A stretch of 64,000 nucleotides of DNA, taken from NCBI GenBank assembly GCA_040752195.1, contig JBFMFC010000003.1:40110-104109 (forward strand), in the 5' to 3' direction. Position numbers and translations under genes: made by a program. A model generated the notes under the pieces. It was not told where the DNA came from, did not search any database, and was given only the letters and a program-made list of their open reading frames with translations. The stretch's first letter is position 1. The number at the start of each line of letters is the position of its first letter. Origin of the DNA: Pseudomonadota bacterium (GTDB taxonomy: Bacteria > Pseudomonadota > Gammaproteobacteria > Burkholderiales > Burkholderiaceae_F). Below, in pieces: positions 43,653 through 51,999 of the stretch.

Positions 43653-44627
43653 ATGGCGGTTTTCACCGCGCTGACGCGCGAAGACATCACGGGGTTCCTG
43701 GCACACCACTCGCTCGGCGAGCTGGTCGCCTATGAAGGTATCGCCACCGGAATCGAGAACACCAACTACTTCGTCGACACGACCACCGGCCGCTTCGTGC
43801 TGACGGTGTTCGAGCGGCTCACTTTCCACCAGCTTCCCTTCTATCTGGAGCTGATGCGCCACCTCGCGCGGCGCATGCTGCCGGTGCCCGAGCCGCAGGA
43901 GAACCGCTCCGGTTCGCTGCTGTCGGAGCTGCGCGGCAAGCCGGCGGCGATCGTCACGCGCGTCGAAGGCGTGGCGGTCGAGCGGCCGGCGGTCGAGCAG
44001 TGCGCGCGCATCGGCACCCTGCTCGCGCACATGCACCTGGAAGCGCGCGACTTTCCCCACTTCCAGCCGAACCTGCGCGGCATCGGCTGGTGGAAGGCCG
44101 TGCTGCCGCAGCTCGAACCTTTCGTCGACGACGAGACCTATCACTTCCTCGCCGAGGAGGTGATCTTCCAGGACAGCTTTCATCGCAGCGCGGTCTACGA
44201 GACACTGCCGCAGGGGCCCGTGCATGGCGATCTCTTCCGCGACAACGTGCTGTGGCAAGGGGGCCCGAACTCGAACCGCATCGGCGGCGTCATCGACTTC
44301 TACTTCGCCGGCTGCACCACGTGGCTGTACGACTTGGCGGTCACGATCAACGACTGGGGCGTCGATCCGTCCGACGGCGCGTTCGACATGCCGCGCGCGC
44401 GCGCGCTGATGAACGCTTACCACGCCGTGCGCCCGCTGACCGCGCAGGAGCGCGAGGTCTGGCGCACGATGCTGCGCGGCGCGGCGCTGCGCTTCTGGAT
44501 CTCGAGGCTGTACGACCTGCACCTGCCGCGCCATGCGCACGTGCTCAAGCCGCACGACCCGAAGCGCTTCGAGCTGACGCTGCGCCGGCGCATCGTCGAT
44601 CCGGAATTGCCGTGGGCCGACGCGTGA
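43653..44627 (+). CDS. thrB: homoserine kinase, type II (aminoglycoside-kinase fold)
   Basis: MAVFT, GIENTNYF, LTVFERL, LPQGPVHGDLFRDN, IDFYFA, LRFWISRL. Confidence 0.93.
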   Translation: MAVFTALTREDITGFLAHHSLGELVAYEGIATGIENTNYFVDTTTGRFVLTVFERLTFHQLPFYLELMRHLARRMLPVPEPQENRSGSLLSELRGKPAAIVTRVEGVAVERPAVEQCARIGTLLAHMHLEARDFPHFQPNLRGIGWWKAVLPQLEPFVDDETYHFLAEEVIFQDSFHRSAVYETLPQGPVHGDLFRDNVLWQGGPNSNRIGGVIDFYFAGCTTWLYDLAVTINDWGVDPSDGAFDMPRARALMNAYHAVRPLTAQEREVWRTMLRGAALRFWISRLYDLHLPRHAHVLKPHDPKRFELTLRRRIVDPELPWADA

Positions 44628-44645
44628 GCCGGGGCGCCGACTGAG

Positions 44646-45392
44646 ATGCAGATCCGCACCGTCCGTCCCGCCGCGGGCGCGGCCTGGCTGCGCGACGGCT
44701 GGCGCCTGTTCAGACAGCAGCCGCTCGGACTGCCCGCGATGGTGGTCGTCTACCTGATGATGCTGTTCCTGCCGGCGCTGCTGCCCTTCGTCGGAATCGC
44801 GATCTCGGGCGTGCTGGCGCCGTTCGCCACCGTCGGCCTGATGACGGCCTGCCGCGACGTGGCGTCGGGGCGGGCGCCGAATCCCTCGGTGTTCGCGCAG
44901 CCGTTCCAGGAAGGCAATCCGAACCGCGTCAAGCTGTTCCGCCTCGGGCTGATCAACGCGTCGCTGGTGCTGCTGCTGGCCACGCTGTTCGCGCTCGTCG
45001 GCGACGACGGCCGGGTGCCGCCGCCCGACGGGCCGCCGACGCTCGCCGACGTGCCGTGGGACATGCTGCTGCTGCAGCTGCTCGCCTACACGCCGGTGCT
45101 GGTGCTGATGTGGTTCGCCCCGTTGCTCGCGGGCTGGCACGGCCTCGGCCCGGCGAAGGCGATGTTCGGCAGCGTCGTCGCGTGCGGCCGCAATGTGGGC
45201 GCGCTGTTCGTGTTCGGACTCGCCGCCGGCGCGGCGACCCTGGCCGCGAGCACGATCGTCGTCGGCGTGCTGGCGATGCTCGTTTCCTCGCGTGAACTGT
45301 TGTCGCTGCTGCTCGCCCCGTTCGGCCTGGTGATGATGACGATCGTGCAGGCGAGCTTCTATCCGATGTACCGGTCGATCTTCGAGGCATAG
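44646..45392 (+). CDS. BPSS1780-like membrane protein
   Basis: GAAWLRDGWRLFRQQP, WFAP.L..W, KAMFGS..AC.RN, Y.MYR.IF; follows thrB. Confidence 0.75.
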   Translation: MQIRTVRPAAGAAWLRDGWRLFRQQPLGLPAMVVVYLMMLFLPALLPFVGIAISGVLAPFATVGLMTACRDVASGRAPNPSVFAQPFQEGNPNRVKLFRLGLINASLVLLLATLFALVGDDGRVPPPDGPPTLADVPWDMLLLQLLAYTPVLVLMWFAPLLAGWHGLGPAKAMFGSVVACGRNVGALFVFGLAAGAATLAASTIVVGVLAMLVSSRELLSLLLAPFGLVMMTIVQASFYPMYRSIFEA

Positions 45393-45418: not shown

Positions 45419-48400
45419 CTACGCCGCCTGCAGCTTCGCGATCGACAGCAGCAGCTCCTTGACGCCCTGCGGGCCGAAGTTGATCTTCGCGCGCGCGTCG
45501 TCGCCGCTGCCCTCGAGCTTGATGATCACGCCGTCGCCGAAGCGCGCATGCCGCACCGACTGCCCGATGCGGAAGCCGTGTACGGTCTGCGGCTTCGGCG
45601 CGACGGCCGCAGCCGCGGACGCCGCGCCGGCATCGTGCCACCGCCCGTAGCGGATGCCTGTGCTTTCGCGCAGCCGCGGCGTCAGCCACTTGACCGCGCC
45701 TTCGGGCAGCTCGTCGATGAAGCGCGACTTCACGCCGTAGCGCGTCTGCCCGTGCAGCATCCGCGACTGCGCGAAGCTCAGGTACAGCCTGCGCCGCGCG
45801 CGCGTGATCGCGACGTACATCAGCCGCCGCTCCTCTTCCAGGCCGTCCGGTTCGCTGACGCTGTTGTCGTGCGGGAACAGCCCTTCTTCCAGGCCGGTGA
45901 TGAACACCGCGTTGAACTCGAGCCCCTTGGCCGCGTGCACCGTCATCAGCTGCAGCGCATCCTGGCCTTCGTCGGCCTGGTTCTCGCCCGCTTCGAGCGA
46001 CGCGTGCGACAGGAATGCCGCCAGCGGCGACGGGATCGCGGCGTCGACTTCGGCCTGCGTGGCCGGCGCGTCGACCGCGTAGCCCTCTTCGCCGACGAAA
46101 GCGGCGGCGGCGTTGACCAGCTCGTTCAGGTTCTCGATGCGCTCCTGCCCTTCCCTTTCGGTCCGGTAGTGCGCGACGAGGCCGCTGCGCTCGATCACCG
46201 CGTCGACGATCTCCTGCAGCGGCAGGTTGGCGGTCTCGAAGCGCAGGCTTTCGATCAGCTTGACGAACGCGGCGAGGTTCGCACCCGCCTTGCCGCCGAC
46301 GCCGCCCACCGCCGCGTACAGGCTCTGGTTCGCCGCGCGCGCCGCGTCCTGCAGCTGCTCGAGCGTGCGCGCGCCGATGCCGCGCGGCGGGAAGTTCACG
46401 ACGCGCAGGAACGCCGTGTCGTCGGCCGGGTTCTCGATCAGCCGCAGGTAGGCGAGCGCGTGCTTGATCTCCGCGCGCTCGAAGAAGCGCAGTCCGCCGT
46501 AGACGCGGTACGGGATGCCGGCGTTGACGAGCGCGTGCTCGATCACGCGCGACTGCGCGTTCGAGCGGTACAGCACCGCGATCTCGCTGCGCGCCAGCCC
46601 GTCGGCGATCAGGTTCTTCACTTCGTCGACGAGCCACGCGGCCTCCAGGCCGTCGGAACCGGCCTCGAAGATGCGAACCGGTTCGCCGTGGCCGGCGTCG
46701 GTCCACAGGTTTTTGCCGAGGCGGCGCGCGTTGTTGCGGATCAGCGCGTTGGCGGCGTCCAGGATGTGCCCGTGCGAGCGGTAGTTCTGCTCGAGCTTGA
46801 TGACGTTGCGCACCCGGAACTCGCGCTCGAAGTCGGCCATGTTGCCGACGTTGGCGCCGCGGAACGCGTAGATCGAGTTGTGCGTCAGCAGGCCGTTGGC
46901 GACGAAGTTGTGCGAGGCTTCGACGTCGATGTCGTAGACGGTGACGCTCGCGCGCGGCGCCGCCTCGACGGCGACGACGGTGTCGAAGCCGCCGTCGGCG
47001 GTGAAGATCGCCATGCCGGTGCGTACGTGTTCGGCCTGCGTCATCGGCAGCGTTCGACGCCCGAGCCGCGCGCGCGTGAGGATGCGGCCGCCGAGAATGG
47101 CGCGGATCTTGCGCGCGTCGTCGGCGAGCTCGCCGTAGTCGCGGCGGAACATCTGCACGCACCAGCCGCCCTTGCCGTCGTCGACGATCGTCGGCAGGTA
47201 ACCCGCTTGCCGAAGCCGCTCGGCCTGCGTCTGATCGAGCGTGCGCGCGTACAGGCGGTGGTTCGGCGCGCCGCGGCGCGTCTCCGCGCACAGCGTCAGC
47301 AGCACGTCGCCGGGCGCGCCGAAACTCGGCCGCCGGCGATCGTCGGGCCGGTCGGCCGCGAGCTTCAGGTCCTCGAGCAGCCAGCGCGCCGCGCGTTCGG
47401 TGTTCAGCGCGGCGAACTCCGGCGGCGGCGCGCTCTTGCCGCGCGCGGCGACGCCGCGCGTCGGCAGCCCGTACTTCAGCGACAGCACGCGCAGGCGCTT
47501 GTCCGCGGACCGCTCGTCGTCGAACGACTCGAGCACCCAGACGGACTCCGCGCCTTCGCGTCGCGCGCGGTGGCGGAAACCCGGCACCGTCTTGCCGTCG
47601 AAGTGCTCGTTGCGATGGCCCGAGACGGCGAGCCGGTAACCCACGCCGGGTTTGTGCATCAGGCACAGGAAGTGTTTCGGCGGCAGATGGCCGACCGCGT
47701 AGCCGGCGAAGTGCGTGTGCTCCGGCGTGCTGGTCAAGGTCCGGCCGCCGGCGGTGCGGATCGTCACGAGCGACGTGTCCACCCCGCGCGCATGCACGCC
47801 GATGACGCGCGCCGGCCCGAAGTGGCCGCCGCCGTAGGCGGAGCGGACGCGGTCGCCGACGGCGACGCGCTCGATCGGCTTGACCGACCCGTCCTCCATC
47901 AGCACCTGCGTGCCCGCGGCCAGGCACTGGTCGTCGTCGCCGACCGCGAACACCGCGTTGCGCGCGCCGCCGCCCTCGCCGTGCCCGGCGAGCAGCTTGA
48001 GCCACTTGTACTGCAGCACGTTGGTGTCCTGGAACTCGTCGACCAGGATGTGGCTGAAGCGCTCCTGGTAGTGCGAGCGCAGCGGCTCGTTGCGCACGAG
48101 CAGCTCGTAGCAGCGCAGCAGCAGCTCGGCGAAATCGACCACGCCTTCGCGCTGGCACTGCGCGTCGTACGCCGCGTACAGCTCGATGAACTTGCGGTTG
48201 TAGTCGTCGTTGACGGCGACGTCTTTCGCGCGCAGACCGGCTTCCTTGGCGTTGTTGATGAACCACTGCAGGTTGCGCGGCGGATAGCGCTCGTCGTCGA
48301 CGTTCAGGCTCTTCAGCAGCCGCTTGATCGCCGAGAGCTGGTCGGCCGAGTCGAGGATCTGAAAGGTCTGCGGCAGGTTCGCGTCGCGGTGATGCGCGCG

Positions 48401-48685
48401 CAGCATCCGGTTGCACAACCCGTGGAAGGTGCCGATCCACATGCCGCGCACGTTGATCGGCAGCATCGCGGCGAGCCGCGTCAGCATCTCGCGGGCGGCC
48501 TTGTTCGTGAAAGTCACCGCGAGAACGCCCTGCGGGCTCACGCGGCGGGTCTGAATCAGCCAGGCGATGCGCGTGGTCAGCACGCGCGTCTTTCCCGAGC
48601 CTGCGCCGGCGAGGATCAGTGCGGACTGATCGGGCAGCGTCACCGCCGCGAGCTGCTGCGGGTTCAGCGAGTCGAGCAGGTTCAT
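45419..48685 (-). CDS. uvrD: UvrD/PcrA SF1 DNA helicase, intein-containing precursor (738 aa after splicing)
   Basis: AGAGSGKT, DEFQD, VGDDDQ|intein|SIYAFRG, LEQNYRS, MTVHAAKGLEF, EERRLMYVAITRA. Confidence 0.96.
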   Translation of the reverse strand: MNLLDSLNPQQLAAVTLPDQSALILAGAGSGKTRVLTTRIAWLIQTRRVSPQGVLAVTFTNKAAREMLTRLAAMLPINVRGMWIGTFHGLCNRMLRAHHRDANLPQTFQILDSADQLSAIKRLLKSLNVDDERYPPRNLQWFINNAKEAGLRAKDVAVNDDYNRKFIELYAAYDAQCQREGVVDFAELLLRCYELLVRNEPLRSHYQERFSHILVDEFQDTNVLQYKWLKLLAGHGEGGGARNAVFAVGDDDQCLAAGTQVLMEDGSVKPIERVAVGDRVRSAYGGGHFGPARVIGVHARGVDTSLVTIRTAGGRTLTSTPEHTHFAGYAVGHLPPKHFLCLMHKPGVGYRLAVSGHRNEHFDGKTVPGFRHRARREGAESVWVLESFDDERSADKRLRVLSLKYGLPTRGVAARGKSAPPPEFAALNTERAARWLLEDLKLAADRPDDRRRPSFGAPGDVLLTLCAETRRGAPNHRLYARTLDQTQAERLRQAGYLPTIVDDGKGGWCVQMFRRDYGELADDARKIRAILGGRILTRARLGRRTLPMTQAEHVRTGMAIFTADGGFDTVVAVEAAPRASVTVYDIDVEASHNFVANGLLTHNSIYAFRGANVGNMADFEREFRVRNVIKLEQNYRSHGHILDAANALIRNNARRLGKNLWTDAGHGEPVRIFEAGSDGLEAAWLVDEVKNLIADGLARSEIAVLYRSNAQSRVIEHALVNAGIPYRVYGGLRFFERAEIKHALAYLRLIENPADDTAFLRVVNFPPRGIGARTLEQLQDAARAANQSLYAAVGGVGGKAGANLAAFVKLIESLRFETANLPLQEIVDAVIERSGLVAHYRTEREGQERIENLNELVNAAAAFVGEEGYAVDAPATQAEVDAAIPSPLAAFLSHASLEAGENQADEGQDALQLMTVHAAKGLEFNAVFITGLEEGLFPHDNSVSEPDGLEEERRLMYVAITRARRRLYLSFAQSRMLHGQTRYGVKSRFIDELPEGAVKWLTPRLRESTGIRYGRWHDAGAASAAAAVAPKPQTVHGFRIGQSVRHARFGDGVIIKLEGSGDDARAKINFGPQGVKELLLSIAKLQAA
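46877..47926 (-). mobile_element. intein (350 aa) in UvrD helicase motif III
   Basis: Starts C-LAAGTQVLM (block A), TPEH (block B TxxH), VYDIDVEASHNFVANG (block F), ends THN; +1 residue is Ser; removing it restores GDDDQSIY. Confidence 0.95.
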
Positions 48686-48880: not shown

Positions 48881-50611
48881 ATGGAACACGAAACCGAGCC
48901 GGGCACCACACCGCTGGCGGACGAATCGCCGGCGCCGACGACGCCGCAACGCAATGTCGCCGCGCTGCTCATCGCCGCGGCCACCGGGCAGGCTTGCGGC
49001 GGCGGGTCCGGCTCGCCCGCGCCGGCTCCCATGCCGCCGGCGCCGGCGATCACGCAGGCCGAGGCGGCACGCTTCCTGACACAGGCCACGTTCGGGCCGA
49101 ATGACGCGACGATCCAGTCGGTGGTCGCGCTCGGCTACCGCGGCTGGATCGAAGATCAGTTCGCCAAGCCGCGTGTGCTGCACCGGACCTACCTCGAGCG
49201 GGCGATCGCCGCCGGTGATCCGGCCGCGCCCGAGCGCATCTATCGCGACCACGTGATGGACACGTTCTGGACGCAGGCGATCACCGGCGAGGATCAGCTG
49301 CGGCAGCGAATGGCGTTCGCGCTGTCGCAGATCTTCGTGGTGTCGCAGGCCAATGCCGACGTGAACAACCGGCCGCGCGGACTGGCGGACTACCTCGACA
49401 TGCTGGGCACGCACGCGTTCGGCAACTTCCGCGCGCTGCTCGAGGCGGTGAGCCTGCATCCGATCATGGGCCTGTACCTGTCCGCGCTGCGCAACCGCAA
49501 GGAGGACCCCGCGACCGGCCGCGTGCCCGACGAGAACTACGCGCGCGAGGTGATGCAGCTCTTCACGATCGGGCTGTACCAGCTCGACAGCGACGGCACA
49601 CTCAAGCGCGACAGCAGCGGCAATCCGATCCCGACCTACAGCAACGCCGACGTGCAGGGGTTGGCCAAGGTCTTCACCGGCTGGAGCTGGGCCGGGCCGG
49701 ATACCACCGACACGCGCTTCTTCGGCGGCAACGCCGATCCGAACCGCGACGTGACGCCGATGCAGGCATACGCGCAGTTCCACTCGACGTCGGCCAAGAC
49801 GTTCCTCGGCGTCACCATCCCGGCGAACACGCCCGCGGAGCCGAGCCTGAAGATCGCGCTCGACACGCTGTTCAACCATCCGAACACCGCACCGTTCTTC
49901 TGTCGGCAGTTGATCCAGCGCTTCGTCACCAGCAATCCGTCGCCGGCGTATGTGGCGCGCGTGGCGGCGGCGTTCGCCGACAACGGCGCCGGCCAGCGCG
50001 GCGACATGAAAGCGGTCATCCGCGCGATGCTGCTCGACACGGAAGCGCGCAGCGCGAGCGTTGCCGCGCAGCCGACCTGGGGCAAGCTGCGCGAGCCGGT
50101 GATCCGGCTCGCCAACTGGGCGCGCGCGTTCGGCGCGACCTCGGTCAGCGGCAACTACATGATCCGCAACGTCGCCGATCCCTCGACAGCGCTCGGGCAG
50201 AACCCGCTGCGTTCGCCGTCGGTGTTCAACTTCTATCGACCGGGCTACGTACCGCCGTCGACCGCGATCGCGAGCGCGGGACTGGTCGCGCCGGAATTCC
50301 AGATCACCGGCGAGACCTCGGTGGCCGGGTATCTCAACTTCATGCGCAACACGGTCAACAGCGGAGTCGGCACCGGCACCGACGTGCGATCGGCCTATGT
50401 GCAGGAGGTCGCGCTCGCCGGCAATCCAGACCAACTGGTCGACCGCGTGAAGCTGCTGCTGACGGCGGGCCGGATGACCGACGCCACCCGCGCCGCGATC
50501 CGCGATGCCGTGGCGGCGATCCCGACGACCGCGACCGGCGCGTCGCTGAACCGCGCCAAGCTCGCGATCTACCTGACGCTCGCGTCGCCCGAATTCATCG
50601 TGCAGAAATGA
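48881..50611 (+). CDS. DUF1800 family protein
   Basis: AARFLTQATFG, DQLRQRMAFALSQIFVVS, FGNFR.LL, PDENYARE.MQLFTIG, KLREP, SPSVFNF. Confidence 0.9.
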   Translation: MEHETEPGTTPLADESPAPTTPQRNVAALLIAAATGQACGGGSGSPAPAPMPPAPAITQAEAARFLTQATFGPNDATIQSVVALGYRGWIEDQFAKPRVLHRTYLERAIAAGDPAAPERIYRDHVMDTFWTQAITGEDQLRQRMAFALSQIFVVSQANADVNNRPRGLADYLDMLGTHAFGNFRALLEAVSLHPIMGLYLSALRNRKEDPATGRVPDENYAREVMQLFTIGLYQLDSDGTLKRDSSGNPIPTYSNADVQGLAKVFTGWSWAGPDTTDTRFFGGNADPNRDVTPMQAYAQFHSTSAKTFLGVTIPANTPAEPSLKIALDTLFNHPNTAPFFCRQLIQRFVTSNPSPAYVARVAAAFADNGAGQRGDMKAVIRAMLLDTEARSASVAAQPTWGKLREPVIRLANWARAFGATSVSGNYMIRNVADPSTALGQNPLRSPSVFNFYRPGYVPPSTAIASAGLVAPEFQITGETSVAGYLNFMRNTVNSGVGTGTDVRSAYVQEVALAGNPDQLVDRVKLLLTAGRMTDATRAAIRDAVAAIPTTATGASLNRAKLAIYLTLASPEFIVQK

Positions 50612-51999
50612 GCCCGAAAATGACCCGCAAATCGCATCCGATCGACGGCAGCCGCCGGCAGTTCCTGCAGACCGCGTCCGCGCTGTCGGTGCTTGGCAGC
50701 GCCACGCCGCTCGCGTTGAACCTCGCCGGCATCGGCGCCGCCGCGGCGCAGACCGCGGAGGACTATCGCGCGCTGGTATGCGTGTTCCTGTACGGCGGCA
50801 ACGACCAGACCAACACGGTCGTGCCGTTCGACTCGTCGGAGTTCAACGCGTACACGGCCGCGCGGCCGACCATCGCGCTCACCTCGGCGCAACTGACGTC
50901 GCTCGGCGCGGTCGCCGCGCAGGGCGGTCGCAGCTTTGCGCTGCCGAACGAACTGGCGCCGCTGGCGACGCTTTACCGCAGCGGCAAGCTCGCGGTGGTC
51001 GCCAACGTCGGGCCGCTGATCGTGCCGACCACCAAGGCGCAGTACCAGAGCGCGTCGGTGCCGTTGCCGCCGAAGCTGTTCTCCCACAACGACCAGCAGT
51101 CGGTGTGGCAGTCGTCAAGCGCCGAGGGCGCGACCAGCGGCTGGGGCGGCCGCATCGCCGACGTGATCGCGTCGGGCAATGCCAACCAGACCTTCTCCGC
51201 GGTATCGGTCGCCGGCGCGGCGGTGTACCTGTCCGGCCGCAGCGTGCTGCAGTACCAGGTCGGCATCAACGGCCCGGTCGCGGTCAGCGGACTGACCGGA
51301 ACGCTGTTCGGCTCCGCGAGTGCGTCCCAGGTGCTGCAGCAACTGATCACCGCGGCGCGGCCCGACATGTTCGAGGACGAATACGACCGCGTGACCGCGC
51401 GCTCGATCGCGGCCAACACGGCATTGACCGGCGCGCTGGCGTCGGCGCCGGCCCTCACCACCGCGTTCCCGGCGGGCAACCCGCTCGCCGACCAACTGAG
51501 GATGGTCGCGCGCACGATCAGCGCGCGGCAGGCGCTCGGCGCGAAACGCCAGGTGTTCTTCGTCAGCCTGGGGGGCTTCGACACGCACGATTTCCAGTTG
51601 CGCGACCAGCCCACCCTGCACACGACGCTCGCCGCCGCGCTCGATGCGTTCTACAACGCGACGGTGGAACTCGGCGTGGCGAATCTCGTCACGACGTTCA
51701 CCGCGTCCGACTTCGGTCGCACGCTGACCAGCAACGGCGACGGCTCCGACCACGGCTGGGGCTCGCATCACTTCGTGCTCGGCGGCGCAGTCAGGGGCGG
51801 AACGATTTACGGCTCCTTCCCGACCGTCGCGCTTGGCACCGCGGAGGACGTGGGCTCGGGGCGGCTGCTGCCGTCGATCGCCGTCGACCAGTACGCCGCC
51901 ACGTTGGCGAAATGGTTCGGCGTGTCGGACACCGATCTCGCGACGGTGGTGCCGAACCTCGCGAACTTCACCACGCGCGACCTCGGGTTCATGGCGTAG
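50608..51999 (+). CDS. DUF1501 family protein, Tat-exported
   Basis: SRRQFL Tat motif, ALVCVFLYGGND, LFSHNDQQ, GWGGR, GGFDTH, SDFGRT, GSDHGWG. Confidence 0.9.
   Translation: MSPKMTRKSHPIDGSRRQFLQTASALSVLGSATPLALNLAGIGAAAAQTAEDYRALVCVFLYGGNDQTNTVVPFDSSEFNAYTAARPTIALTSAQLTSLGAVAAQGGRSFALPNELAPLATLYRSGKLAVVANVGPLIVPTTKAQYQSASVPLPPKLFSHNDQQSVWQSSSAEGATSGWGGRIADVIASGNANQTFSAVSVAGAAVYLSGRSVLQYQVGINGPVAVSGLTGTLFGSASASQVLQQLITAARPDMFEDEYDRVTARSIAANTALTGALASAPALTTAFPAGNPLADQLRMVARTISARQALGAKRQVFFVSLGGFDTHDFQLRDQPTLHTTLAAALDAFYNATVELGVANLVTTFTASDFGRTLTSNGDGSDHGWGSHHFVLGGAVRGGTIYGSFPTVALGTAEDVGSGRLLPSIAVDQYAATLAKWFGVSDTDLATVVPNLANFTTRDLGFMA

What the first reader, a model, noticed from the sequence alone, without database searches (positions are those of the whole stretch)
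46877..47926. 350-aa intein in helicase motif III of UvrD
An in-frame insertion splits the conserved GDDDQ|SIY and has all class 1 splicing residues (Cys1, TxxH, block F Asp, His-Asn, Ser+1). Inteins favour ATPase motifs of replication/repair proteins but are uncommon in Betaproteobacteria, so this points to horizontal acquisition. It could also make UvrD activity conditional on splicing (Cys1 is redox/metal sensitive).
Basis: partly seen in the sequence, partly recalled or inferred. Interest (0 to 1): 0.75.

Follow-up and report, generated by a model that had tools for sequence, protein, structure and literature searches.

The report
UvrD helicase intein, nuclease probably decayed
The DNA-repair helicase gene uvrD is interrupted by a genuine self-splicing protein insert (intein) of a widespread, already annotated type that has been inherited vertically here, and its unclassified middle domain has lost residues that the rest of the family keeps almost without exception.

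Summary
A 350-aa in-frame insert (window 46877-47926, minus strand) splits GDDDQ|SIY of helicase motif III in a 1088-aa UvrD. It has Cys1, T67-x-x-H70, D332, H339, H349-N350 and Ser+1.

Evidence that it is an intein:
- Hint models pass their curated cut-offs.
- An AlphaFold model (pLDDT 89.7) superposes on solved mini-inteins.
- Relatives carry exact empty alleles.

It is not new. The literature lists UvrD inteins, and coliphage Bas62 has an annotated intein at the same site with a homologous middle domain. The middle-domain profile finds 1,820 protein clusters; the seven atypical ones I checked are all UvrD-type helicases. This scan has noted the family before, in 79 findings from at least 72 genomes.

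Recent horizontal acquisition is not supported. The intein is in all five sampled congeners and in related genera. Its divergence tracks extein divergence, and its GC content is unremarkable.

The 204-aa middle domain matches no Pfam, PHROG or PDB family. GIY-YIG and LAGLIDADG profile tests were negative, and fold hits were weak. In this lineage, residues that are near-invariant in the main family are replaced (E145L, Y88C, H135F, H195D), yet dN/dS is about 0.2. The nuclease is probably dead but the domain is retained.

Redox or metal regulation is untested speculation.

The parts
45419..48685 (-). uvrD precursor gene: 1088 codons plus stop, ATG start
   Evidence: ORF list and translation. Pfam finds UvrD-helicase at 1-254, UvrD_C at 629-973 and the PcrA_UvrD_tudor domain. 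TIGR01075 uvrD scores 972.8 bits in two stretches. It is the only UvrD/Rep-type match at E<=1e-50 in the 96.9%-complete assembly.
47927..48685 (-). N-extein, residues 1-253, ending in GDDDQ (first half of helicase motif III)
   Evidence: It aligns to residues 1-254 of intein-less UvrD in relatives.
46877..47926 (-). Intein, 350 aa, class 1 (Cys1 ... His-Asn)
   Evidence: AlphaFold model with pLDDT 89.7 and pTM 0.85. Foldseek matches solved inteins: gp41-1 with TM 0.85 and Mtu RecA with TM 0.77, both normalised to the target.
47696..47926 (-). N-terminal Hint part, residues 1-77. Block A holds Cys1 (47924-47926). Block B holds T67 (47726-47728) and H70 (47717-47719).
   Evidence: TIGR01445, Hom_end_hint and Hint matches over residues 1-70. 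C1, T67 and H70 are invariant in 193 sequences.
47084..47695 (-). Central domain, residues 78-281. It has two beta-beta-alpha-beta-alpha subdomains, belongs to no catalogued family, and is presumed to be a former homing-endonuclease module.
   Evidence: Model of the domain alone has pLDDT 85. None of 80 members has a Pfam hit, and there is no PDB sequence hit. Fold hits are weak. The profile finds 1,820 clusters. Within-genus dN/dS is 0.21-0.26. The main-family residues Y88, Y105, H135, E145, H195, R205, R256 and E258 are C, R, F, L, D, P, C and Q here.
46877..47083 (-). C-terminal Hint part, residues 282-350. Block F holds D332 (46931-46933) and H339 (46910-46912). Block G holds H349 (46880-46882) and N350 (46877-46879).
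   Evidence: TIGR01443 scores 30.3 bits against a cut-off of 15.6. phmmer aligns residues 319-350 to the Spl DnaX mini-intein 7cfv. These residues are invariant across the family, bar one alignment gap.
45419..46876 (-). C-extein, residues 604-1088 plus stop. It begins with Ser+1 (46874-46876) in SIYAFRGA, the second half of motif III.
   Evidence: It aligns to the C-terminal part of intein-less UvrD.

Best explanation
This is a splicing-competent class 1 intein, long resident in the only uvrD gene of a Burkholderiales-type bacterium.

Inferred mechanism (not shown here):
1. The precursor is translated with helicase motif III split, so it cannot act as a helicase.
2. Cys1 makes an N-S acyl shift, helped by the block B Thr-x-x-His.
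3. Ser+1 attacks the thioester to give a branched ester.
4. Asn350 cyclises, helped by His349 and the block F Asp and His, and releases the intein.
5. An O-N shift restores GDDDQSIY and yields a 738-aa active UvrD.

The intein belongs to a very large family that appears specific to this site in UvrD/PcrA/Rep-type helicases of bacteria and phages. The family carries its own 204-aa middle domain, most likely the homing module that once spread it.

In the window's lineage the intein has been passed on vertically. The middle domain has lost a set of polar residues that are near-invariant elsewhere, so it probably no longer cuts DNA. It is still kept under purifying selection, perhaps because the Hint fold needs it to fold and splice, or because it still binds DNA.
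For: Shown here:
- Exact boundaries and all splicing residues are present.
- Hint HMMs score above their cut-offs.
- A confident model has the Hint fold.
- 23 relatives have the uninterrupted GDDDQSIY. Their junction DNA is nearly identical to the joined flanks of this gene.
- Splicing residues are invariant, bar one alignment gap, in 193 family members.
- Within-genus dN/dS is 0.16-0.19 for the extein on both sides of the insert, 0.19-0.32 for Hint and 0.21-0.26 for the middle domain.
- uvrD is single-copy in the assembly.

Vertical history:
- The intein is in 5 of 5 congeners and in 2 other genera of the family.
- Extein/intein identity pairs run 94/89, 92/85, 81/58 and 78/51%.
- All intein-bearing alleles fall in one 14-row extein clade.

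Family breadth:
- At least 585 proteins match, and 119 of the 120 listed have the same site.
- The middle-domain profile finds 1,820 clusters. The seven atypical ones checked are all UvrD-type helicases.
- The annotated intein of phage Bas62 has a homologous middle domain at 99.3% probability.

Decay of the middle domain:
- E145 is kept in 148 of 150 main-family sequences but in 0 of 36 in the Burkholderiales-type clade.
- Y88, Y105, H135, H195, R205, R256 and E258 are replaced in the same way.
Against: - Splicing itself is not observed.
- No nuclease activity is known for any member of the middle-domain family, so calling the lost residues catalytic is an inference from conservation alone.
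- A dN/dS of about 0.2 and unchanged length across a clade that has diverged to about 50% identity are not what a decaying homing endonuclease usually shows.
- The interspersed empty alleles need at least 3-4 gains or losses. Some homing in the clade's past therefore cannot be excluded.
Confidence: 0.8

Rival explanations
1. This is a recently and horizontally acquired, still mobile intein with an active homing endonuclease.
For: All inteins ultimately arrive by invasion. The distribution within the family is patchy: 8 of the 41 genomes searched carry it, with empty alleles interspersed in the extein tree. Empty alleles in close relatives keep an intact target sequence. The middle domain is under purifying selection.
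Against: All 5 congeners carry it. Intein divergence scales with extein divergence, and no near-identical intein sits in a divergent extein. There is no compositional anomaly. Main-family near-invariant polar residues of the middle domain are replaced throughout this clade.
Confidence: 0.1
2. The intein has been co-opted as a conditional switch. Splicing, and so UvrD activity, would be gated by redox state, metals or DNA, and the retained non-catalytic middle domain would act as the sensor.
For: The insert sits in a motif that must be intact for activity. The middle domain is conserved in this lineage (dN/dS about 0.2) despite losing the putative catalytic residues. The domain appears tied to UvrD-type hosts. 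From my own knowledge, not tested here: conditional splicing is documented for other Cys1 inteins, for example mycobacterial DnaB, Pho RadA and Pab PolII.
Against: There is no specific evidence. Of the four cysteines, only C1 and C213 are conserved in the family, and no CxxC or Cys pair lies near the junction in the sequence. Most relatives do without the intein, so no essential regulatory role is implied.
Confidence: 0.08
3. The middle domain is a divergent GIY-YIG nuclease. This is the reading of a first-reader note on this genome and of several earlier follow-ups in this scan on other genomes.
For: The first subdomain has beta-beta-alpha-beta-alpha topology. A greedy profile alignment is colinear with GIY-YIG: family Y88 falls on the GIY Tyr and SExEAxxxE on the catalytic-Glu helix. 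A few GIY-YIG/Seg-type phage endonucleases appear among weak BFVD fold hits, at probability 0.35-0.44.
Against: PF01541 does not hit the insert, either in a whole-genome search of the assembly or in any of 80 members scanned at E<=1. hhalign against 30 UvrC/URI GIY-YIG domains gives at most 2.5% probability, while the UvrC-versus-URI control gives 99.1%. No GIY-YIG structure is among the top 50 PDB fold hits; LAGLIDADG enzymes lead weakly instead. In this window the Tyr and Glu in question are Cys and Leu.
Confidence: 0.3
4. The insert is a dead, non-splicing insertion and uvrD is a pseudogene.
For: None, beyond the lack of direct splicing data.
Against: The 1088-codon frame is open. Both extein halves have dN/dS of 0.18. 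All splicing residues are invariant. It is the only uvrD copy.
Confidence: 0.02

Closest known systems
Annotated intein in the UvrD/Rep family helicase of Escherichia phage JohannJBalmer (Bas62, MZ501084.1, bas62_0080) and phi92-like phages
   Same: It has the same insertion point in motif III (VVGDEFQ|C...SHN|CIY). The size is similar (347 aa). It aligns over the whole 350 aa (tblastn E 1e-11). The middle domain is homologous at 99.3% hhalign probability over 190 columns.
   Different: Identity is only 25-26%. The +1 residue is Cys rather than Ser, and the host is a phage. The phage copy keeps Tyr and Glu at the positions that are Cys88 and Leu145 here (alignment).
UvrD inteins listed by Novikova et al. 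2016 (PMC4760082) and the SPO1/CampHawk phage UvrD intein (PMC3868849)
   Same: UvrD is a recognised intein host: 16 cases in Acidobacteria, Actinobacteria, Deinococcus-Thermus, Firmicutes and Proteobacteria. In CampHawk, an intein spanning Cys292-Asn576 disrupts the UvrD helicase.
   Different: I could not check the insertion sites and middle domains of those cases, because the supplement is not held. One review places helicase inteins at the P-loop, whereas this one is in motif III.
Bifunctional class 1 inteins with a nested LAGLIDADG endonuclease (PI-SceI, PI-PfuI, Tli/Pho VMA, Mtu RecA)
   Same: The Hint fold is split by a roughly 200-aa inserted domain. The best whole-model fold hits are these inteins. 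LAGLIDADG enzymes are the most consistent, though weak, fold hits of the middle domain.
   Different: There are no LAGLIDADG motifs. No Pfam LAGLIDADG family hits any of 80 members. hhalign probability is at most 3.5%. Fold E-values are 0.01 or worse.
GIY-YIG nucleases (UvrC N-terminal domain, I-TevI, URI/YhbQ)
   Same: The first subdomain has the same beta-beta-alpha-beta-alpha order, and the motifs are colinear in the main family.
   Different: No statistical support was found at the HMM, profile-profile or fold level. Dassa et al. 2009 state that GIY-YIG is not known inside inteins.

Membership tests
Intein, class 1 (Hint superfamily) | Nucleophile (Cys/Ser) at intein position 1 | tested here: met
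   Cys254 of the precursor is intein residue 1. It is invariant in 193 members.
Intein, class 1 (Hint superfamily) | Block B Thr-x-x-His | tested here: met
   T67-P-E-H70 is present, and both residues are invariant.
Intein, class 1 (Hint superfamily) | Block F Asp/His, terminal His-Asn, and Ser/Thr/Cys at +1 | tested here: met
   D332, H339, H349, N350 and Ser+1 are present. In 119 homologues the +1 residue is Ser in 117, Thr in 1 and Cys in 1.
Intein, class 1 (Hint superfamily) | Match to curated Hint/intein profile above threshold | tested here: met
   PF14890 scores 37.9 bits against 35.8 on the insert alone, but 34.0 on the whole precursor. TIGR01443 scores 30.3 against 15.6. TIGR01445 scores 22.9 against 24.5, just below its cut-off.
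Intein, class 1 (Hint superfamily) | Hint fold | tested here: met
   AlphaFold model has pLDDT 89.7. Foldseek matches gp41-1 intein (TM 0.85) and Mtu RecA intein (TM 0.77), and 41 PDB hits have E<=1e-3.
Intein, class 1 (Hint superfamily) | In-frame insertion in a conserved host motif, with intein-less alleles that read through exactly | tested here: met
   23 relatives have GDDDQSIY uninterrupted, and the DNA at the junction is nearly identical to the joined flanks.
Intein, class 1 (Hint superfamily) | Protein splicing activity | not testable with these tools
   Splicing is inferred only from invariant catalytic residues and purifying selection on both exteins.
UvrD / DNA helicase II (TIGR01075) | Full-length match to the equivalog model | tested here: inconclusive
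   The score is 972.8 bits in two stretches (the second covers 603-1085), below the 1144 cut-off because the intein splits the match. It is the best of all helicase models. The extein is 75-97% identical among related UvrD sequences.
GIY-YIG nuclease (PF01541) | Profile match | tested here: not met
   No hit on the insert in the own-genome search or in 80 members at E<=1. hhalign probability is at most 2.5% against 99.1% for the positive control.
GIY-YIG nuclease (PF01541) | Catalytic Tyr (beta1), Tyr (beta2), Arg (alpha1) and Glu (alpha2) | tested here: not met
   In this window the candidate positions are C88, Y97, R120 and L145. The main family has Y88, Y/F97, R120 and E145, but their equivalence rests on a non-significant alignment.
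LAGLIDADG homing endonuclease | One or two LAGLIDADG helices with terminal acidic residues; profile match | tested here: not met
   No LAGLIDADG Pfam family hits any of 80 members. hhalign against 30 LAGLIDADG_3 domains gives at most 3.5% probability.
LAGLIDADG homing endonuclease | alpha-beta-beta-alpha-beta-beta-alpha fold | tested here: inconclusive
   Several LAGLIDADG enzymes lead the fold hits, but at E of 0.011-0.2. Probability reaches 0.77 in PDB and 0.97 in BFVD, over 73-92 columns at rmsd 5-7.
HNH homing endonuclease | HNH profile match | tested here: not met
   No HNH family appears in the Pfam scans.

The most novel reading that the evidence does not exclude
The 204-aa middle domain may define an undescribed homing-endonuclease family built in-frame into inteins, apparently specific to motif III of UvrD/PcrA/Rep helicases. 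Its origin could be a very divergent GIY-YIG or LAGLIDADG domain, or neither. In the Burkholderiales-type clade it has lost its catalytic residues yet is maintained by selection. That would make it a nuclease-dead intein domain kept for another role, such as folding or splicing support, DNA binding, or control of UvrD maturation.
Probability: 0.3. Interest if true: 0.55.

Novelty: new member of a known kind. Interest (0 to 1): 0.3.

Why it matters
As an intein in a repair helicase, this is ordinary. UvrD is a recognised intein host, and the same-site intein is already annotated in phages.

Two points have some value:
- The middle domain is a very large, well-folded family (1,820 clusters) with no catalogue entry and no assigned nuclease class. 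A biochemical assignment would add a homing-endonuclease type to inteins.
- This lineage gives a natural comparison between main-family copies with all conserved polar residues and a vertically inherited clade that lost them but keeps the domain under selection. That comparison bears on the homing-cycle model and on whether resident inteins acquire host-level roles.

The finding does not open a long-standing question by itself.

Tried and rejected
- **GIY-YIG identity of the middle domain.** I tried Pfam on the insert and on 80 members, a PF01541 search of the own genome, and hhalign against 30 UvrC/URI domains in local, greedy and global modes, using all members or main-family members only. 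None was significant.
- **LAGLIDADG identity.** Pfam and hhalign against 30 LAGLIDADG_3 domains were not significant. Only weak fold hits appeared.
- **Profile search of PDB sequences.** This gave nothing.
- **PHROGs.** This gave nothing.
- **Free-standing homologues of the middle domain.** Only 27 short proteins turned up. Nearly all are singletons, and several carry helicase or Hint pieces, so they look like fragments rather than a free-standing family.
- **An endonuclease gene hidden in another frame or on the opposite strand,** as in some phage inteins. The long alternative frames in the window are a GC artefact. In family members with 39-54% GC, no alternative frame stays open beyond about 170 codons.
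- **tblastn of the middle domain alone against phages.** This found nothing; the whole intein did.
- **The supplement of Novikova et al.** with UvrD insertion sites is not held.
- **Distances between cysteines in the model.** These could not be measured because model coordinates are not exposed to scripts.
Full report
**Observation.**
The region lies in a 1088-codon ORF on the minus strand, window 45419-48685. The translation reads ...NAVFAVGDDDQ, then CLAAGTQVLMEDG ... NFVANGLLTHN, then SIYAFRGANVG.... A script placed the insert at precursor residues 254-603. That is window 46877-47926, exactly as reported. Cys1 is at 47924-47926, Asn350 at 46877-46879 and Ser+1 at 46874-46876.

Outside the insert the protein is UvrD. 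Pfam UvrD-helicase covers 1-254, UvrD_C covers 629-973, and the PcrA/UvrD tudor domain sits at the C-terminus. TIGR01075 (uvrD) is the best NCBIfam model at 972.8 bits, in two stretches that stop and resume at the insert.

**Is it an intein?**
- On the insert alone, Pfam Intein_splicing scores 37.9 bits (cut-off 35.8) and TIGR01443 intein_Cterm scores 30.3 (cut-off 15.6). Hom_end_hint, Hint and TIGR01445 match the first 70 residues below their cut-offs.
- phmmer against PDB sequences finds the Spl DnaX mini-intein, VMA inteins, hedgehog Hint and the Mtu RecA intein.
- An AlphaFold model built on 80 diverse homologues is confident (pLDDT 89.7, pTM 0.85).
- Foldseek against the PDB returns 41 hits at E<=1e-3, essentially all inteins or other Hint domains. 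Target-normalised TM-scores are 0.85 for gp41-1 and 0.77 for Mtu RecA.
- The residues C1, T67, H70, D332, H339, H349 and N350 are invariant in 193 family members, bar one alignment gap.
- The +1 residue is Ser in 117 of 119 homologues.

Splicing itself cannot be shown with these tools.

**Empty alleles and history.**
I searched 40 related genomes and the window's own genome with the precursor. The intein is present in all five genomes of the same genus and in two other genera of the same family.

Most other genera of the family, and the other families of the order that matched, give two adjacent matches (1-254 and 603/604-1088) in one open frame of 707-841 aa. I fetched these genes. In 23 of them the motif reads GDDDQSIY without interruption. 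The junction DNA of close relatives is nearly identical to the joined flanks of this gene.

In a maximum-likelihood tree of the exteins, all ten intein-bearing alleles fall in one 14-row clade. Four empty alleles are interspersed among them, so at least 3-4 gains or losses are needed.

Pairwise identities show that the intein diverges in step with its extein. Extein/intein identities are 94/89 and 92/85% within the genus, and 81/58, 78/51 and 79/53% to other genera. No young intein sits in an old extein.

Intein GC is 72.8%, against 66.7-69.6% for the exteins and 69.0% for the window.

I conclude that the intein has been resident since before the genus split. It is probably older, with later losses or old local homing. 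There is no sign of recent horizontal acquisition. Inteins are a minority feature in the order but not rare: 20 of 151 evenly sampled genomes have a Hint match.

**Selection.**
Within the genus, Nei-Gojobori dN/dS values are as follows:

| Region | dN/dS |
|---|---|
| Exteins | 0.16-0.19 |
| Hint parts | 0.19-0.32 |
| Middle domain | 0.21-0.26 |

The precursor is the only UvrD/Rep-type gene found at E<=1e-50 in the 96.9%-complete assembly. A functional UvrD therefore has to come from this gene, which argues for efficient splicing.

**How widespread and how known.**
A word-seeded search with the intein region found at least 585 proteins. Among the 120 listed, 119 have the same DDDQ|C...HN|S(I/V)Y junction, with inteins of 330-368 aa. 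They come from Burkholderiaceae, other Betaproteobacteria, Steroidobacteraceae, Usitatibacter, Holophaga and Ktedonobacterales, among others.

Published and annotated precedents:
- Novikova et al. 2016 list 16 UvrD inteins in five phyla (PMC4760082).
- The CampHawk genome note reports an intein in the UvrD helicase of SPO1-like phages (PMC3868849).
- tblastn of the intein against phage genomes hits 55 records. In 38 of them one place covers at least 80% of the intein. The top hits cover all 350 residues and are mostly phi92-like coliphages.
- In Escherichia phage JohannJBalmer (Bas62) the gene is annotated "intein-containing UvrD / Rep family helicase precursor", with the intein as a mature peptide. 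It has the same VVGDEFQ|C...SHN|CIY junction.

This scan had also already noted the family in 79 findings from at least 72 genomes. As an intein, it is a new member of a known kind.

**The middle domain (residues 78-281).**
*Sequence and fold searches.*
- No Pfam family matches it in the window, or in any of 80 members at E<=1.
- A profile of the domain finds nothing in PDB sequences and nothing in PHROGs.
- The model of the domain alone is good (pLDDT 85.2). It shows two subdomains of beta-beta-alpha-beta-alpha order, joined by helices.
- Foldseek against the PDB gives no hit at E<=1e-3. The best hits (E 0.015-0.2) are a run of LAGLIDADG homing endonucleases over about 75 columns.
- Against predicted viral structures, three large phage proteins match the whole domain (E 1.6e-8 to 1.2e-6). 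One is unnamed, one is annotated as a methyltransferase and one as a helicase. They presumably carry inteins of their own, but I did not check this.
- Weak LAGLIDADG hits and a few GIY-YIG/Seg-type hits follow.

*Profile tests of the two nuclease classes.*
- I aligned 30 GIY-YIG domains (UvrC and URI types) from genomes of the order. I also aligned 30 LAGLIDADG_3 domains from the class.
- hhalign probabilities for the middle domain or its halves are at most 2.5% against GIY-YIG and at most 3.5% against LAGLIDADG.
- The positive controls give 99.1% and 100%.
- A greedy alignment of the main-family first subdomain to GIY-YIG is colinear. Tyr88 falls on the GIY tyrosine, and SExEAxxxE falls on the catalytic-Glu helix. 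Its P-value is only 0.04.

The GIY-YIG reading, proposed by a first-reader note on this genome and by earlier follow-ups elsewhere, is thus neither confirmed nor excluded by my tests. The domain remains unclassified.

*Distribution.* A profile search of 1.84 billion representative proteins finds 1,820 clusters at E<=1e-3. The seven with unusual length or position that I checked are all UvrD-type helicases, some with extra inteins at other sites. A length-restricted search found only 27 short, mostly singleton proteins that look like fragments, so there is no free-standing family. The phage Bas62 middle domain is homologous at 99.3% probability over 190 columns.

**What is special about this lineage.**
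In the 150 main-family sequences (under 45% identical to the query), a set of polar residues is 90-100% conserved. These are Y88, Y105, R120, E124, D127, H135, E138, R142, E145, H195, R205, R217, H223, R256 and E258.

In the 36 sequences of the Burkholderiales-type clade (at least 50% identical to the query):
- None keeps E145; it is Leu, Met or Gln.
- H135 is mostly Phe or Tyr.
- Y105 is Arg or Lys.
- H195 is mostly Asp or Ala.
- R205 is Pro or Glu.
- R256 and E258 are replaced.
- Y88 is Cys or His in 24 of the 36.

The query has C88, R105, F135, L145, D195, P205, C256 and Q258. R98, R120, E124, H223 and all splicing residues stay invariant.

If the main-family residues form a nuclease active site, the nuclease is dead in this clade. 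That inference rests on conservation only. It would fit the vertical inheritance. The clade nevertheless keeps the full-length domain under purifying selection. That suggests either a structural requirement for folding and splicing or a retained non-catalytic role.

**Other checks.**
The long ORFs on the opposite strand and in other frames of the intein are GC artefacts. In family members with 39-54% GC, the alternative frames are closed. This excludes a hidden out-of-frame endonuclease of the kind described for actinophage inteins.

The neighbouring genes are unrelated to mobile elements. They encode an APH-family kinase, an unassigned 248-aa ORF and a DUF1800/DUF1501 pair.

**The regulatory idea.**
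Cys1 inteins can be inhibited by oxidation or Zn2+ in general. That statement rests on my own knowledge of other inteins and was not tested here.

In this intein only C1 and C213 are conserved cysteines. No cysteine pair is evident near the junction in the sequence. I could not measure distances in the model.

Most relatives live without the intein. I rate a dedicated switch function as unlikely (about 0.08) but testable.

**Verdict.**
The horizontal-acquisition and conditional-activity readings are not supported. The element is a new member of a known and very common intein family.

The residual interest lies in its unclassified middle domain and in that domain's apparent catalytic decay under continued selection in this lineage.

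Noticed in passing
own genome, outside the window: G000:C113:4164-4973 (L023, L178): A second intein sits in the same genome, inside a ribonucleotide reductase large subunit (Pfam Ribonuc_red_lgC). It has a canonical LAGLIDADG_3 endonuclease domain (80.9 bits) and a Hint match. The gene runs off the contig end.
   Followed up: partly
P0246 (1210 aa, metagenomic UvrD-type helicase): Besides the motif III intein, this helicase carries another intein (Intein_splicing 250-544). A DUF559/Vsr-like (REase_MTES_1575) domain is nested in-frame inside it at 437-501. Dassa et al. 2009 said this endonuclease type was not known inside inteins. P0264 and P0280 carry additional LAGLIDADG inteins at other UvrD sites.
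   Followed up: no
L062, L064, L075 (metagenome loci, intein coordinates): Three family members have shorter inteins (329-331 aa against about 358 aa), so they have a deletion of about 27 residues. I did not map it; it may be an early step towards a mini-intein.
   Followed up: no
window 43653-45392 and 48881-51999: uvrD is flanked by an APH-family phosphotransferase gene and an unassigned 248-aa ORF on one side, and by a DUF1800/DUF1501 gene pair on the other. No integrase, transposase or phage gene is adjacent.
   Followed up: partly
P0124 (281 aa, on a 333-kb contig), P0134 (261 aa, on a 65-kb contig), P0140 (262 aa): These short proteins consist mostly of the middle domain and lie on long contigs. 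They could be frameshifted or fractured uvrD-intein genes, or rare free-standing copies. I did not inspect them.
   Followed up: no
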